A DNA stretch of 64,000 nt, from positions 13,619,488-13,683,487 of the forward strand of contig CM074520.1 in assembly GCA_037379345.1 (NCBI GenBank), written 5' to 3'. A program made the position numbers. The DNA comes from Perna viridis. Its lineage: Eukaryota. Shown here piece after piece: positions 33,001-39,000 of this stretch. The first letter of the stretch is position 1. Every line of letters starts with the position of its first letter.

Positions 33001-36000
33001 AAAAATATGACTTCATCAGCAGTCTATTAGAGTGTTTGCACCTTAAGAAAATTTAAACCATCCACCAATGTTCCATAGTTCTAAACAAATTTTCCACTGC
33101 CTCTAACATGTTACAAAATTTCAATACTAATTAAATAAAAGAACAGCGTTCCAATGTCCCCTGCGAAAAAAAAAGTGCGGAAAATGTGGAAGGATGGACG
33201 GGCGCCCAGCATTTCCATGTCCCCTCGTGACACGCCCAAGCAAGGGACAATAATGCCTATCAAAGCTTATATGCTGACATTATAAACAAACCTGTGAGAA
33301 GTTGAAGAGTGGATCAAATGTTCCCCAGCATACATTGGAATGAACAGAGTCATCACACCAAAACATTCTACATGCAAGGTATGTATTTCTTACACTCATA
33401 TCCCTGGCCTTAACACCTACAATTATCAATGAACACTTATTAAAATCTAATATATCATATGATATAATAACATAATGCACCATGATTAAAAATTACATTT
33501 GTCATAATTATAGACTTTTTGGTAAACCCGGACTTTTAATGATTTCTGTGGATGGTAACAGCCATAATACACCTGTATATGATTAATCTGAAATATTTTC
33601 ATTGCTTTAGTCCTGACATTGAAGAGATCTATTTAACACTGCATTCTATGGCATTTGTTATATTTCAAATATTCACATACTCAAAAATATTTAGCCATTA
33701 AAATGTGTTGATCCTGACCTCTGACCTTGTTGAACTGGAATAGCCCAAATATATACCAGTTTTGCTAAGTAAAATGGTAACAATGGAGCTTGATATCTGT
33801 GATCATTTAAATATACAGAGGCAATATCTGTAAAAGTGCATTTACTTTAAAATTTACCTGGTGGAGATAAGGCATTGGGTTGGGGTGGAAATACTGGATG
33901 CCTTTTCATTGATACTAGTGATGGTATGCCCTGCGTTGAAATGTTTCTACCCTCAGATACCAGTAACAATGTGTGTAAAGTGACATGCTGGAAGAAATGA
34001 ATCGATTCAAATATTATATTGAAAGTCTCAGTTGTAATAATTATTTATGCAAAAAATCTATGAACATTTATGTTCCATATTTTTTAAAACCAATTAATTG
34101 ATATGTGGAAATGTGTTCACTTGAAAGAATCTTTTAAAAATTAATTGGTTTACAGTAGTCTCTGATACAACTAAAACATACAATACCTCATAATCTGTGT
34201 ATTGGGGTTGATAACTGATTTCTTTTGGCACTTGTTGAACACCTTGTGTCATGGGAGTGTTAGATATTACTGGTGGAGCTGTACCTGCATGCATATAAAT
34301 ATGTTTCATGTATCAAGCAGGATTGCCTAATGATATGTGTTCAGAAAATTAATTCACAAAAATAGCCATTAGTATTGATGTCAAGTTCTTTACCTATTCA
34401 AAAATTGTTTTCAAATAAAAAAAATTGCAGTACACATGATGACATTATCTAACATTTACAAAAAATAATAAACTGTAATCTACCAACAAGTTAAATACCC
34501 AGAAGAGTGTCAGAATAACAAGGCATTATTACCATAAATTTAGAGATCAGAGCATTGACTCATTGATCAGATTTGTCAACAAACTGCAAATGTAGTACAT
34601 CAAAATAACAGCTGAATTAGTTGCAGCATTAAAAACACCTCAATAATACCTTAATATTCAAAAGGTTTTTTATACTTACTAGTTTGTATATTAGGTTGTG
34701 CTGTTAAATGCTTTGGTTCTGGCTGTGTGTGAATTACGTTTTGTGAGGGTGCTGGTGGTGGACGAGGCTTTGAGGGAGCTGGGGCAGGAATTGGCACAAT
34801 CTTGGTTTTCCCTGACATCTCTGCAAGTTTGGTCCTTGCAAGGTGTGTTGAGAAGTCTTTACTATCAGATGCTAATTCAATAGACACCTGTAATGGAAGA
34901 ATTTCAGACACGTAATCATACCACAATGTACTTATCAAGGTGTCAAAAGGTCAAAACCACATACATTATCATATATATAGACCAGAGAAATTTTATCATA
35001 AAATGAAATTCAATACTATGAAGCAACTTTTCTCATGGACACATTTTTGAAAATTTTTAAAGAAAACTACAATTTCCAAGAATACTAAATTTTACCACTA
35101 ATAAAAATGTAGGTGTGTGAAAAGAATTAAATACATCAAGGATTCAGGACAAATATTTCCAGCAAAATTTTTGCAATCTCAATTTTATTGCATTTAAAGT
35201 GATTAATAGTAACACTTAACATACCTTTAAATTGCCATACAGGCCATCCATGTCACTTTTATGGACTGACGAGTTGATGGAAGAGTTTTTGTTGGTAGAT
35301 TCTCTGACCTCTAGTTCTTTGTCAACAAACAGTGATTCTGATTTTAACACAGACTTCATTGGAATACCACAACTTCCAATCAATGAGGGCTGAAAAAATC
35401 ATGAGTTTAATTAACAAAGGAAACCATCTCCTTAATTCATGTACATACATTAAATATATTTAAAACATATAAGCATGCAATACAAGTAAATAGTTCTGCT
35501 AACATTTATATGTGTTCCCTTTTTTTAATCATCAAAGATCTGATAATATATCTTATAAAAAGTCATTTAAATCCTTTTATTGTATTTTTCAATTTTATTA
35601 TGATTTTTGGAGAAATAGACAAATAGAGGTACATTTTCATCAAAGAAGAGATTAGATTAAAAAAAATTAAGATTTTCATCTCATTTGAGACATAGTTAAA
35701 ACATTAATGAGAGTAGATAAATGAACAGCTTCTTACCACTTTCTGTCCTGCAGATCTGGCATACACTTTGAATACCAAAGCTGACTTCCACCAATTGTCT
35801 ATAGCATTACCATCAAACATGATAGGGAAGACAGAGCGATGGTTAAACTGTACCACTGGGAAGTATGAAGTATTGAACAATTATTACACTGGGAAGTATG
35901 ACGTATTGAACAATTATTACACTGGGAAGTATGACGAATACAACAATTATTACAGTGGGAAGTATGACGTATACAACAATTATTACACTGGGAAGTATGA

Positions 36001-39000
36001 CGTATTGAACAATTATTACACTGGGAAGTATGACGTATTGAACAATTATTACACTGGGAAGTATGACGTATTGAACAATTATTACACTGGGAAGTATGAC
36101 GTATACAACAATTATTACACTGGGAAGTATGACGTATACAACAATTATTACACTGGGAAGTATGACGTATTGAACAATTATTACACTGGAAAGTATGACG
36201 TATAGAACAATTATTACACTGGGAAGTATGAAGTATAGAACAATTATTACACTGGGAAGTATGACGTATACAACAATTATTACACTGGGAAGTATGACGT
36301 ATTGAACAATTATTAAGTCAATCTGTATAAAAGGGGAGTAATCACATTTGCATATGTGTATGTGTGTGTGTGTGTGTGTGCTTATGTTTTTATTTCTGTT
36401 TGAATTTTTAAGTATGGTTCTGCCTAAAAACCAGGCAGGGTGTGATTCATCATATGTCAAGATAATCAAATTTTCAAATACATTTGAGAGATCCTGAAAA
36501 CAACTCTTCCTATGTTTTTTTTCCTTGGATCTGCTACATGTGGTGAAATATTTTTTGACTGGTTAAAGTGTAAAAATTCTGGCAGGAAATTTTCCCATAC
36601 TTTTATGTAGTAGAGCGTAACAAAATTTTAGTGTTAACATCTAAGGGTGGGCAACTTTCATCTGTAATTTTATTTTCAGGTACAGTTTCTATGAGAACTA
36701 CTGAAGGATTTCCAATCAAAAATATTTGGGATGAACTATATGAATCAGTCATGGCGAAATTCATCGGACTGTCGGACATGACCGGTACTTTTAGCTTCCG
36801 ATCCGGTAAAATTTGTGTGATTTCCGGACCAGATGTCCGGTAAGTTTTTTTTATTAGACAAGCTTCAACCAGAACTTCTGGTTTAAAGATGGCGTCTGAA
36901 TCGCGGAAAATTTTTAATTTTTTTTGGTCCGGCAGATAATTGTTCGGTCCAGTAGATTTTGTTAAGTTGCCTGACCAAATGTCCAACAGGTTGGAAAATG
37001 ATTTCGCCAGGTCTTATGAATTACTAATCATATGCTTCTGTCTGGTTTTAAGACAGAGCTACCCTTAAAAGGTGAACATCAGTATTTCTCTTTACTTAAA
37101 AAATACGCAAACAATAAGAAAATATTGATGGCCAGAATGTGTCCTTTTCAACACTATTATCCATAGACACATTCAATCTAACATATTTTCAACAGAAAAA
37201 TTTCACTTCAGAATAACTTTTGAAAAAAGAATATTCCTGTTTATGCTGTATTTTCTGCACTTTAATCTAAAATTTACATTGTCATTTAAAACAAGGTAAT
37301 TAAAAAATCATCAACTTACATCCATTATTTACATTCTTTGATGCTACCCTCATAACTTCTGTAGCCAGAGCATTTGGAGAATATTTGTCCCTAGATGTTG
37401 CTACAACAGGAAACTGGTATTCGATAAAGAATGTCCTGAAAAACAAAGATCATAACATTACACTTACCTAGATGAACTCTTTGAAGGACACATTAAAATG
37501 GATGAATAAAAAGTCAAATATAAGAGTACACCCACAATTTGGATTAGAACTCATGTTTGTAAGGCCACCTACTATTTGTACATTTGTGCAGTTTTCTTTT
37601 TTTTTTTTGAAAGTTGGACTTCTTTTACCCTGATTTTTTCTCTATATACTTAGAAAATGATATCCGTAAATCTGCATATAAATGAACACACATTTTTTGC
37701 ATATTTTCTGTAATAAAAGTCTAGAAAGAACTCACATAGACTTTTTGCCTTTTGGAGAGGGTTTTGGTGGCTTGCCTACAGTTTTAAATTTGAAGCCTCT
37801 TTTTGAGGATGATGATGTGTTCAGCTCCTGTCCAGTCAAGTGTAAGACATCTATTGAAACTCTTGCCACATGAACTCTACCAAGCAATGTCAGTCTTTCC
37901 ACACTTAAACCATCTACCTTCTTTTTCTTTGATTGCTCATCTGAAGTGCACAAACAATTCAAAATAGCATTTTAACAATACTGTTTGATGGAAATTAACT
38001 TATAATACTTCAAAATGCTACAAAATAATTTTAAAAACCCCACCTTATTTTGCTAAATGAATTAACGTCGAACACTACAAAGAGAAATTTTAACATTTTT
38101 TCCTTTAGTTTTGGCAGCATTGACCAAACAGTTTTCCATAGTGTTGGCAAAATCTTTGCTTTCACTCTCCTTTTACCTACCATATTCAGGCTCATCGAGA
38201 TCTGAGGCAGGTAAATCAAATGACACTTGTGAAATCTCAGATCGTGGTGTACATGCTCTTTCACTGTCACTGTACTCGCTAGCACTACTACGAGCACTGC
38301 TTCTTGACCGTCTACGTTTTTTACTTCCTGTTCTCTTCATTTTCAATCTTGCTTTTCTCTTTGGTGTCTTTGGTCGTTTCTTTGATTTGTTTTCCTTTTC
38401 TTCGACTTCTTCACTAGGTGGAATGTTCATACTGGATATGGACGATCTTCTTGAGGGAGGTCGCTGAAAATGAAAAAGTGTCAGATTAGGAAAGATATGT
38501 TAACTTTCATCAATTTGAAAGTTTATTTGAACAAACTACAAATAAAATTTTTAAAAATCATATTTGTTTAAATTTTCATGGTTTGTGGAATCTTTGTTCA
38601 CAAAAGGTAAAACATGGATCGGCCTTTGATATTAACTGACCTGATTAGCTGGATCCTCTATAGATGCCATACTGGTGTTACTTTTGCTAGATTTGGACTT
38701 CTTCAAATCAATCTCATCACCACTCAGACCACTAAGTTCGCTTGTCTCTGACTCCTATAAATAACATTCAATATATTGGTAATGTTTTTTTTTCTCCATA
38801 ATATTACGAGAATTTCTGAGAACATTTTGGTTTTTGGATCTTCTATACCAGAGAATACTGAATCTATGAAAACCTAAGGACACATTTCATTCACATTTTA
38901 AAATCACCATTTGTAGATGAAACATGGTGTTCAAACAAGTATCATAGGTAGAAAATAAATACATGCTCAGTTAAAGGACACAATAATTATACCAATATAA

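What the first reader, a model, noticed from the sequence alone, without database searches (positions are those of the whole stretch)
35855..36320. A splice acceptor amplified into a 14-copy array: decoy 3' splice sites each followed by an in-frame double stop
Seen: on the C2CD3 strand the 33-bp unit reads taataattgttcaatacgtcatacttcccag|TG, i.e. the intron end plus the first two exon bases. Only the last copy continues into coding sequence (TG GTA CAG, L-V-Q-F-N-H-R). The 13 upstream copies continue TG TAA TAA; 12 keep the AG and the copy at 35954 has AC. Exon 13 ends in phase 1 with T, so use of any decoy gives TTG-TAA-TAA and truncates the protein at about codon 677 of 2705. The better branch-like sequence (gacttaat, about 36312-36319) now lies upstream of the first decoy, about 460 nt from the true AG, while internal copies offer only tgtaat. 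Inference: copy number could tune productive versus NMD-targeted splicing, a natural test of 3' splice-site choice and exon definition.
Basis: partly seen in the sequence, partly recalled or inferred. Interest (0 to 1): 0.7.

Follow-up and report, generated by a model that had tools for sequence, protein, structure and literature searches.

The report
Splice acceptor repeated 14 times
In a mussel-family C2CD3 gene, the last 31 bases of an intron plus the first 2 exon bases are repeated 14 times head to tail; only the final copy can yield the conserved protein, which makes this an acceptor-side counterpart of known minisatellites that repeat splice donors.

Summary
Window 35854-36315 holds exactly 14 head-to-tail copies of a 33-base unit (minus strand TAATAATTGTTCAATACGTCATACTTCCCAG|TG). 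13 of 14 copies keep the AG; the copy at 35953-35985 has AC.

The window is not human. It comes from a mytilid bivalve, and the gene is C2CD3. Only the last AG (exon starts at 35855) gives the junction ...NG-L-VQFNHRSVFP found in 14 of 16 bivalve C2CD3 proteins examined. Every other AG-bearing copy would give T|TG TAA TAA.

The intron is old: it has the same position and phase in oyster. The array is young, with about 3-5 private changes in 462 bases. It is therefore a recent tandem amplification of an existing acceptor.

The best reading is a tolerated minisatellite, probably variable in length, whose exon-nearest copy is spliced. Leakage to other copies would give stop-containing mRNA. I found no evidence for a tuning function, and no RNA or population data could be reached.

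The double stop is a by-product of AT-rich intron sequence.

The closest known cases are donor-side minisatellites in human F7, IFI6 (6-16), CBS, LMNB2 and PDGF. This is a new variant of a known kind, of moderate interest.

The parts
35854..36315 (-). 33-bp x 14 minisatellite. Each unit is the last 31 intron bases (putative branch region, pyrimidine tract, AG) plus the first 2 exon bases (TG).
35856..35857 (-). AG of the productive 3' splice site, in the last unit. The exon begins at 35855.
   Evidence: Junction NG|L|VQFNH matches bivalve C2CD3 proteins.
35737..35855 (-).
37320..37435 (-).
35856..37319 (-). Intron of 1464 nt. It would be 1035 nt without the 13 extra units.
35887..36315 (-). 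The 13 upstream (decoy) units. Their equivalent 'exon starts' lie at 35855+33k for k=1..13. 12 have AG, and all are followed by TG TAA TAA.
35953..35985 (-). The one unit whose AG is AC.
35854..35886 (-). Last unit. It carries G->T at unit position 18 (CGTCAT to CTTCAT), which removes a G from the pyrimidine tract. The same change occurs in the unit at 36217-36249.
36312..36321 (-). Unique flank with the branch-like motifs TTGAC and TTAAT just upstream of the first unit. They lie 34 and 29 nt before the first decoy's exon-start equivalent.
   Evidence: The motif reading is my own and is not validated.
36355..36380 (-). (CA)n microsatellite about 35 nt upstream of the array.
15399..43661 (-). 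Extent of the C2CD3 gene matched by the Mytilus edulis protein (41 tblastn pieces).

Best explanation
This is a young minisatellite. It arose by tandem duplication (replication slippage or unequal exchange) of a 33-bp segment straddling an ancient intron-exon boundary of a mytilid C2CD3 gene, and it then expanded to 14 copies.

Each unit carries a pyrimidine tract, an AG and weak branch-like adenosines, so the pre-mRNA offers 13 nearly identical 3' splice sites 33 nt apart. Productive mRNA requires the exon-nearest copy.

I infer that this copy is the one mainly used, for three reasons:
- Recognition of the 119-nt exon from its good donor favours the nearest upstream pyrimidine tract and AG.
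- The last copy has the cleanest pyrimidine tract.
- The 33-nt AG-free stretch before it is typical for this gene.

Any use of an upstream copy gives TTG-TAA-TAA, a transcript expected to be degraded by nonsense-mediated decay. The array is thus mostly silent, or at most slightly costly. Nothing shows it to be a regulatory device.

Shown here: the array, its boundaries, the junction, the stops, and the age contrast between intron and array. Inferred: which AG is used, NMD of decoy products, and polymorphism of copy number.
For: - Exact 14 x 33 array with sharp ends; the unit includes AG plus TG.
- The junction through 35855 reproduces NG-L-VQFNHRSVFP. This is seen in 14 of 16 bivalve proteins examined; the other two (P0004, P0016) do not align convincingly with either exon. 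Mytilus also has Leu at the split codon.
- The gene looks intact. 41 tblastn pieces cover 2588 of 2713 residues of the Mytilus edulis protein at 75.8% identity.
- The intron is old. An unannotated genomic ORF (P0019) follows the oyster protein up to ...KDG and then reads GNINEQ, which fits G|GTAAT... This indicates a phase-1 intron at the same place.
- The array is young. There are 7 distinct unit types and only about 3-5 private substitutions in 462 bp.
- In a weight matrix built from 30 other acceptors of the same gene, the last copy scores highest of the 14: 2.8 bits against -4.9 to 2.5.
- The nearest upstream AG lies 33 nt away, which is the median of 31 introns.
- There is no sign of a mobile element: no flanking inverted repeats and no other copy of the unit or the intron in the window.
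- There is no significant RNA structure (z = -1.55; 8 of 100 shuffles fold as well), no Rfam match, and no Pfam match for the repeat ORFs.
- By analogy, in donor-side minisatellites spanning exon-intron borders the exon-proximal authentic site is used, alone (F7, LMNB2, PDGF) or together with the two nearest pseudo-sites (6-16, CBS) (PMC1557585, Introduction).
Against: - No transcript evidence of any kind was available, so the choice of AG is inferred.
- All 14 sites score at the low end for this gene. The leave-one-out median of the other acceptors is 7.0 bits, and the last copy at 2.8 ranks below 26 of 30. Its margin over the best decoy is 0.3 bits on a matrix built from only 30 sites.
- Exons extended by 33-165 nt would still be of normal size, so exon definition alone does not exclude the nearest decoys.
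- If 3' sites are picked by 5'-to-3' scanning from a dominant branch point in the unique flank (TTGAC/TTAAT at 36312-36321), the first decoy would win. The passage on duplicated globin sites in PMC1557585 says experiments with duplicated sites gave opposite results in different laboratories.
- Only 1 of 13 decoy AGs is destroyed, so there is no visible selection against decoys. There is equally none for them.
Confidence: 0.62

Rival explanations
1. The decoy acceptors are used at an appreciable rate, and array length acts as a rheostat that sets the ratio of productive to NMD-targeted C2CD3 mRNA.
For: - 12 intact decoys are nearly identical to the true site from -31 to +2 and score similarly.
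- All give an immediate stop far upstream of the last junction.
- In the donor-side arrays of 6-16 and CBS, the two nearest pseudo-sites are used constitutively (PMC1557585).
Against: - There is no RNA, population or cross-species evidence.
- The array is young, so a conserved regulatory role is unlikely.
- The stops are expected by chance in AT-rich intron sequence.
- F7 pseudo-sites are functional but silent (PMC1557585 abstract).
Confidence: 0.1
2. A hypomorphic or null haplotype. The original branch point lies in the unique flank upstream of the array, so the first AG (exon start 36284) is chosen and most transcripts from this allele are unproductive. On this reading the assembly captured a deleterious allele, carried heterozygously in a highly polymorphic bivalve.
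For: - TTGAC and TTAAT, both perfect yUnAy matches, occur only in the flank. Inside units the corresponding motif is GTAAT.
- A scanning model for 3' sites is widely accepted (PMC1557585 Discussion passage).
- High genetic load in bivalves is recalled from memory and was not checked here.
Against: - Branch motifs are barely enriched in this gene (1.34-fold), and 15 of 31 introns lack YTRAY within 60 nt. A flank-only branch point is therefore not compelling.
- The several substitutions among units imply the array has persisted for some time.
- The rest of the gene is intact.
Confidence: 0.12
3. An assembly artefact. The array, or its copy number, is wrong.
For: - Tandem arrays are error-prone in assemblies.
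- The scaffold has a gap elsewhere (N run at 23957-24120).
Against: - There are 7 distinct unit variants in a non-periodic order, and the array has sharp unique flanks.
- At 462 bp it is short enough to be spanned by single long reads.
- The gap is 11.7 kb away.
Confidence: 0.08
4. A satellite or transposon-borne repeat inserted next to the exon, whose last unit was co-opted as the acceptor. On this reading the acceptor was not amplified.
For: - A (CA)n tract lies about 35 nt upstream.
- One unrelated library ORF (P0067) has a 9-residue repeat, GKYEILNNY, that resembles the plus-strand reading TGKYDVLNNYY.
Against: - The array includes the first 2 exon bases and ends exactly there.
- The intron position predates the array.
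- There are no terminal inverted repeats and no other copies in the window.
- Of the 141 library hits, none reached E <= 1e-30, and the listed identities are mostly below 50%, with 70% (P0067) the highest.
Confidence: 0.03

Closest known systems
Human F7 intron 7 37-bp minisatellite (5-9 copies) whose first monomer spans the exon 7-intron 7 border (PMC1557585; abstract, Introduction and passages read)
   Same: A head-to-tail minisatellite of 30-40 bp whose exon-adjacent monomer contains the splice junction, so identical splice sites are reiterated inside the intron. The monomer includes a few exon bases (4 in F7, 2 here). Use of a pseudo-site would disrupt the mRNA.
   Different: F7 reiterates the donor (5' site), whereas here the acceptor with its pyrimidine tract is reiterated. 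F7 is a human gene with transcript, mutational and population data, whereas here there is sequence only. The selection rules differ: U1 pairing and 5'-to-3' scanning for donors, against branch point, U2AF and AG scanning for acceptors.
Other donor-side boundary minisatellites listed in the PMC1557585 Introduction: interferon-inducible 6-16 (25 pseudo-sites), CBS intron 13 (15-20 repeats), LMNB2 (100-bp unit), PDGF intron 4 (81-bp unit)
   Same: Reiterated splice sites from a minisatellite that spans an exon border. The exon-proximal site dominates, with the two nearest pseudo-sites also used in 6-16 and CBS.
   Different: All are on the donor side, all are human, and their products are partly in frame. 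Here every decoy gives an immediate stop.
[quoted passage not shown] 2007; passage only)
   Same: Possibly an acceptor-side boundary VNTR.
   Different: I saw one sentence only. The side, unit and consequences are not known to me.
Experimental tandem duplications of acceptor sites in globin genes, and the branch-point-to-first-AG scanning model (cited in the PMC1557585 Discussion; original papers not read)
   Same: Identical 3' sites compete in cis.
   Different: Those were two artificial copies in a mammalian gene, and the outcomes were reported as contradictory. Here there are 13 natural competing AG sites in a mollusc.
NAGNAG and other tandem acceptors (mentioned in PMC1636351)
   Same: Adjacent alternative AGs produced by local duplication.
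   Different: Their spacing is 3 nt and they share one branch point and tract. Here the spacing is 33 nt and each copy has its own tract.

Membership tests
Minisatellite spanning a splice junction (reiterated splice sites, F7 IVS7 type) | Head-to-tail array of a 10-100 bp unit | tested here: met
   33 bp x 14.0 copies, 95% matches, no indels
Minisatellite spanning a splice junction (reiterated splice sites, F7 IVS7 type) | The exon-adjacent monomer contains the exon border, so the splice-site sequence is reiterated in the intron | tested here: met
   The last unit holds AG|TG at 35857-35854, and 12 further intact copies lie upstream. The difference from the described cases is that this is the acceptor, not the donor.
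Minisatellite spanning a splice junction (reiterated splice sites, F7 IVS7 type) | Physiologically, the exon-proximal authentic site is the one used | not testable with these tools
   No transcript data. Only the protein-level requirement that 35855 be used is shown.
Minisatellite spanning a splice junction (reiterated splice sites, F7 IVS7 type) | Copy number is polymorphic in the population | not testable with these tools
Regulated unproductive splicing (alternative splicing coupled to NMD) | The alternative site introduces a stop well upstream of the last exon junction | tested here: met
   TTG TAA TAA at every decoy, with about 29 tblastn pieces of coding sequence further downstream.
Regulated unproductive splicing (alternative splicing coupled to NMD) | The alternative junction is observed in RNA and stabilised when NMD is blocked | not testable with these tools
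   No RNA data.
Regulated unproductive splicing (alternative splicing coupled to NMD) | The poison element is conserved across species | tested here: inconclusive
   Library search with the plus-strand repeat ORF: 141 hits at E<=0.001, none at E<=1e-30 and no near-identical sequence; the four fetched (P0036, P0045, P0067, P0077) are other tandem repeats. However, no close relative's genome appears to be in the library (top hit for the flanking exon is 88% identical). The low divergence between units argues for youth.
Transposon- or satellite-borne tandem repeat | Terminal repeats or flanks of an element, and dispersed copies | tested here: not met
   No flanking inverted repeats; 14 of 14 unit matches lie inside the array; no other copy of the intron in the window. 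The test covered the window only, so genome-wide copies remain untested.
NAGNAG / tandem acceptor | Alternative AGs a few nt apart sharing one pyrimidine tract | tested here: not met
   Spacing is 33 nt.
Recursive splice site | AG immediately followed by GT(A/G)AGT | tested here: not met
   The sequence is CAG|TGTAAT. The GT is offset, and no donor is regenerated after joining to ...GGAT.
C2CD3 gene | N-terminal C2 domain of C2CD3 (PF25339) and collinear similarity to C2CD3 proteins | tested here: met
   PF25339 at E = 4.8e-18 at 43473-43661. The named hits are C2 domain-containing protein 3-like or hypothetical/partial bivalve proteins, best 69% to Mytilus on the fast-evolving large exon. 41 collinear pieces.

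The most novel reading that the evidence does not exclude
The array is a natural, copy-number-variable dial on an essential centriole and cilium gene. Upstream acceptor copies capture a length-dependent share of splicing events and send them to decay, so mussels with different array lengths make different amounts of C2CD3.

Independently of any function, it would be the first acceptor-side counterpart of the F7 model. It would show directly whether metazoan 3' site choice among identical sites follows exon proximity or 5'-to-3' scanning.
Probability: 0.08. Interest if true: 0.7.

Novelty: new variant of a known kind. Interest (0 to 1): 0.42.

Why it matters
Identical, evenly spaced 3' splice sites in a native gene are a clean test of how the spliceosome picks one AG among equals. 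The candidate rules are exon definition, proximity, and scanning from the branch point.

The donor-side equivalent (F7) was used for this purpose on the donor side. In the five literature searches aimed at this question I found no worked-out acceptor-side case, only a one-sentence mention for FAM20C.

If decoys are used, array length would be a heritable modifier of the dosage of a ciliogenesis gene. If they are not used, the locus shows that a complete pyrimidine tract plus AG can be silenced purely by position.

Tried and rejected
- **Pre-mRNA structure hiding the decoys.** The fold of 35800-36360 (minus strand) has z = -1.55, and 8 of 100 shuffles fold as well. Rejected.
- **RNA family.** 0 Rfam matches in the window at gathering thresholds.
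- **Coding role for the repeat.** The other two minus-strand frames are open through the array but stop at 35843 and 35799. No Pfam family matches the three repeat ORFs or the exon-frame ORF. Rejected.
- **Mobile element.** No flanking inverted repeats and no other copies in the window.
- **Locating the branch point from the gene's own introns.** yUnAy occurs 39 times in 960 near positions against 306 in 10063 far positions, a 1.34-fold enrichment. CTRAY is depleted (1 against 31). 15 of 31 introns have no YTRAY within 60 nt. This is too weak to place a branch point.
- **Looking for the same array or the same species in protein libraries.**
  - The large exon returned 16 hits, the best at 69% identity.
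Resent with two more contiguous codons, it returned 18 hits, the best at 88% identity; the eight I fetched read as ORFs on unannotated genomic contigs of other bivalves.
  - The plus-strand repeat ORF returned 141 hits with no close match. The four I fetched, P0036, P0045, P0067 and P0077, are other tandem repeats.
- **Literature on duplicated acceptors.** One search found 3 papers and one search found 0; none was useful. One search, on bivalve minisatellites, gave nothing relevant. PMC7536079 concerns exonic repeats and is not relevant.
- **Positional chance (my arithmetic).** TRF arrays cover about 1327 of 64000 bases, or 2.1%. The gene has about 80 splice sites in 28.3 kb. A random 33-bp seed inside the gene would therefore include a junction about 9% of the time. 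The location alone is not improbable.
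Full report
**What the window is**

The window is 31.6% G+C with CpG observed/expected 0.37 and one N run at 23957-24120, which I left untouched. I do not take it for human.

- The large minus-strand exon at 16456-18312 is 69% identical to 'C2 domain-containing protein 3-like' of Mytilus edulis and M. trossulus. Identity falls to 30-42% for oysters, scallops and clams. 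All 16 hits are bivalve or unnamed.
- The ORF at 43473-43661 (minus strand) matches Pfam C2_C2CD3_N at E = 4.8e-18.
- tblastn of the M. edulis protein P0001 against the window gives 41 collinear minus-strand pieces from 43661 to 15399. They cover 2588 of 2713 residues at 75.8% identity.
- The 4 stops inside pieces fall in 3 pieces that run past exon ends or overlap a neighbouring piece.

The window therefore comes from a mytilid bivalve other than those two Mytilus species, and the gene is C2CD3.

I searched the gene exon by exon. In M. edulis numbering the split codon is residue 675 of 2713.

**The observation**

- Tandem Repeats Finder reports one array at 35854-36315: period 33, 14.0 copies, 95% matches, no indels.
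- The consensus unit on the gene strand is TAATAATTGTTCAATACGTCATACTTCCCAGTG. It matches 14 times at up to 3 mismatches, all inside the array, against 0 matches in each of 100 shuffles.
- Listed in register, 6 of 14 units equal the consensus and there are 7 distinct unit sequences. They differ at unit positions 12-13 (CA, GT or CT) and by single changes at positions 16, 18, 27 and 31.
- 13 of 14 units have AG at positions 30-31. The unit at 35953-35985 has AC.
- The array ends sharply. The 33-base blocks on either side differ from the consensus at 26 and 17 positions.

**The junction**

The upstream exon (37435-37320) reads TFFIEYQFPVVATSRDKYSPNALATEVMRVASKNVNNG and ends with one extra T before GTAAGT. 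The downstream exon begins TG GTA CAG at 35855 and runs to 35737 (GTG|GTAAGA). T|TG gives Leu.

In 14 of the 16 bivalve proteins, the two exon peptides align at full or nearly full length and are separated by a single residue, L or V (two residues in P0014). Mytilus has L. The other two proteins, P0004 and P0016, gave only short spurious alignments to both exon peptides.

The conserved protein therefore requires the last AG. An AG 8 nt further downstream (GTACAG|) would be out of frame. Each upstream copy continues TG TAA TAA, so joining 37320 to any of the 12 AG-bearing decoys gives TTG-TAA-TAA. The other two frames are open through the array but stop at 35843 and 35799, so the repeat cannot add coding sequence to C2CD3.

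**Origin**

The array is exactly 14 units, flanked by unique sequence. The single-copy ancestor would therefore read ...ACAGATTGACT + unit + GTACAG. That is an ordinary intron end whose last 31 bases and first 2 exon bases were duplicated.

The intron itself is old. An unannotated genomic ORF (P0019) follows the oyster C2CD3 sequence up to ...KNIKDG and then reads GNINEQ. This is what G|GTAAT... would give, so oyster has a phase-1 intron at the same position.

The array is young. Apart from the shared CA/GT/CT variants there are only about 3-5 private substitutions in 462 bp.

No evidence points to a mobile element:
- No inverted repeats flank the array.
- No other copy of the unit or of the intron lies in the window.
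- There is no Rfam match and no Pfam match.

The location alone is not improbable. By my arithmetic, roughly 9% of random 33-bp seeds inside this gene would include a splice junction.

**How it most likely works**

I inferred 34 introns of the gene from the protein alignment and kept the 31 with good junction scores.

- A weight matrix from the other 30 acceptors scores the true site at 2.8 bits. That is low for the gene: the leave-one-out median is 7.0 and the range is -8.8 to 12.3.
- It is nevertheless the highest of the 14 copies. The decoys score -1.3 to 2.5, and the AC copy scores -4.9.
- The difference comes from the G->T change at unit position 18 in the last unit and from the +3 base. 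With 30 training sites, these differences are small relative to noise.
- The nearest upstream AG is 33 nt away, exactly the median of the 31 introns. An AG-free zone of one unit is therefore normal for this gene.
- Branch motifs are hardly informative here. yUnAy is enriched 1.34-fold at -45..-13, CTRAY is depleted, and 15 of 31 introns lack YTRAY within 60 nt.

In this gene, though, that carries little weight.

The array has no significant RNA structure (z = -1.55).

I therefore infer that the 119-nt exon is recognised from its good donor and that the nearest pyrimidine tract and AG are used. Leakage, if any, would go to the nearest decoys, and those transcripts would be removed by NMD. The NMD rule is recalled from general knowledge and was not tested.

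**What is known**

A class of minisatellites whose exon-adjacent monomer spans an exon-intron border is documented on the donor side. PMC1557585 (abstract, Introduction and passages read) describes:
- F7 intron 7: a 37-bp unit in 5-9 copies. Only the most upstream site is used, and the pseudo-sites are functional but silent.
- 6-16 (25 pseudo-sites) and CBS (15-20 repeats), where the two nearest pseudo-sites are also used.
- LMNB2 and PDGF, where only the authentic site is used.

The same paper notes that artificial duplications of donor or acceptor sites in globin genes gave contradictory results. It also notes that scanning is widely accepted for 3' sites.

PMC1636351 (passages) places the zone in which AGs are excluded at roughly 7-19 nt downstream of the branch adenosine.

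[quoted passage not shown] Five searches aimed at this and one more found no worked-out acceptor-side case. That is a statement about those searches, not about all of the literature. I consulted no supplementary files.

**What stayed unchecked**

- No transcript data, no second haplotype and no related eukaryote genome could be reached.
- Protein-library searches found no sequence from this species or a close relative around the junction (best 88%). They found no counterpart of the repeat ORF (141 hits, none at E <= 1e-30, the highest identity 70% in P0067; the four I fetched are other tandem repeats).
- One homologous-protein search was left unused, because these results made a useful answer unlikely.

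**Verdict**

The feature is real and correctly described. It is best read as a young tandem amplification of a pre-existing acceptor, and the exon-nearest copy must be the productive one. The proposed tuning role is possible but has no support.

It is a new (acceptor-side, molluscan) variant of a known kind of boundary-spanning minisatellite. It would make a neat natural experiment for 3' site choice if RNA data were obtained.

Noticed in passing
window 50978-51148 (+) and further plus-strand ORFs to about 54266: A protein phosphatase methylesterase 1 (PPME1)-like gene lies next to C2CD3 on the opposite strand. The 56-aa ORF matches PDB PME-1 chains at E = 1.1e-09. Pfam gave nothing for this short piece.
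   Followed up: partly
window 2888-3586 (-): An exon-sized ORF carries a Diaphanous GTPase-binding domain (PF06371, E = 5.5e-10), so a formin-type gene lies downstream of C2CD3.
   Followed up: no
window 944-1231: A second minisatellite: a 36-bp unit in 8.0 copies at 91% matches, open in frames on both strands. Its context was not examined.
   Followed up: no
window 17498-17526 (-), inside the large C2CD3 exon: A 12-bp coding repeat gives a run of Asn-Gly (NGNGNGNGNG) in the poorly conserved large exon.
   Followed up: no
window 36603-37013 (-), same intron as the array: A 136-codon open frame in a locally CpG-richer stretch. It has no Pfam match and no second copy in the window. It may be a remnant of an element, but this is unexplained.
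   Followed up: partly
window 23957-24120: A run of 164 N inside a C2CD3 intron (between the exon pieces ending at 24165 and starting at 23387). It was left as it is.
   Followed up: no
library protein P0067 (unnamed record): An ORF from another tandem repeat with a 9-residue period, GKYEILNNY, resembles the plus-strand reading of this array, TGKYDVLNNYY (70% identity over the matched stretch). This could be chance or a related minisatellite elsewhere. Its origin was not traced.
   Followed up: no
window 40094 and 20538 (-) acceptors: Two inferred acceptors have another AG 2-3 nt upstream (ttaggag|GTA and aatagag|TTA), which are NAGNAG-like arrangements. The 20538 junction had a modest score.
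   Followed up: no
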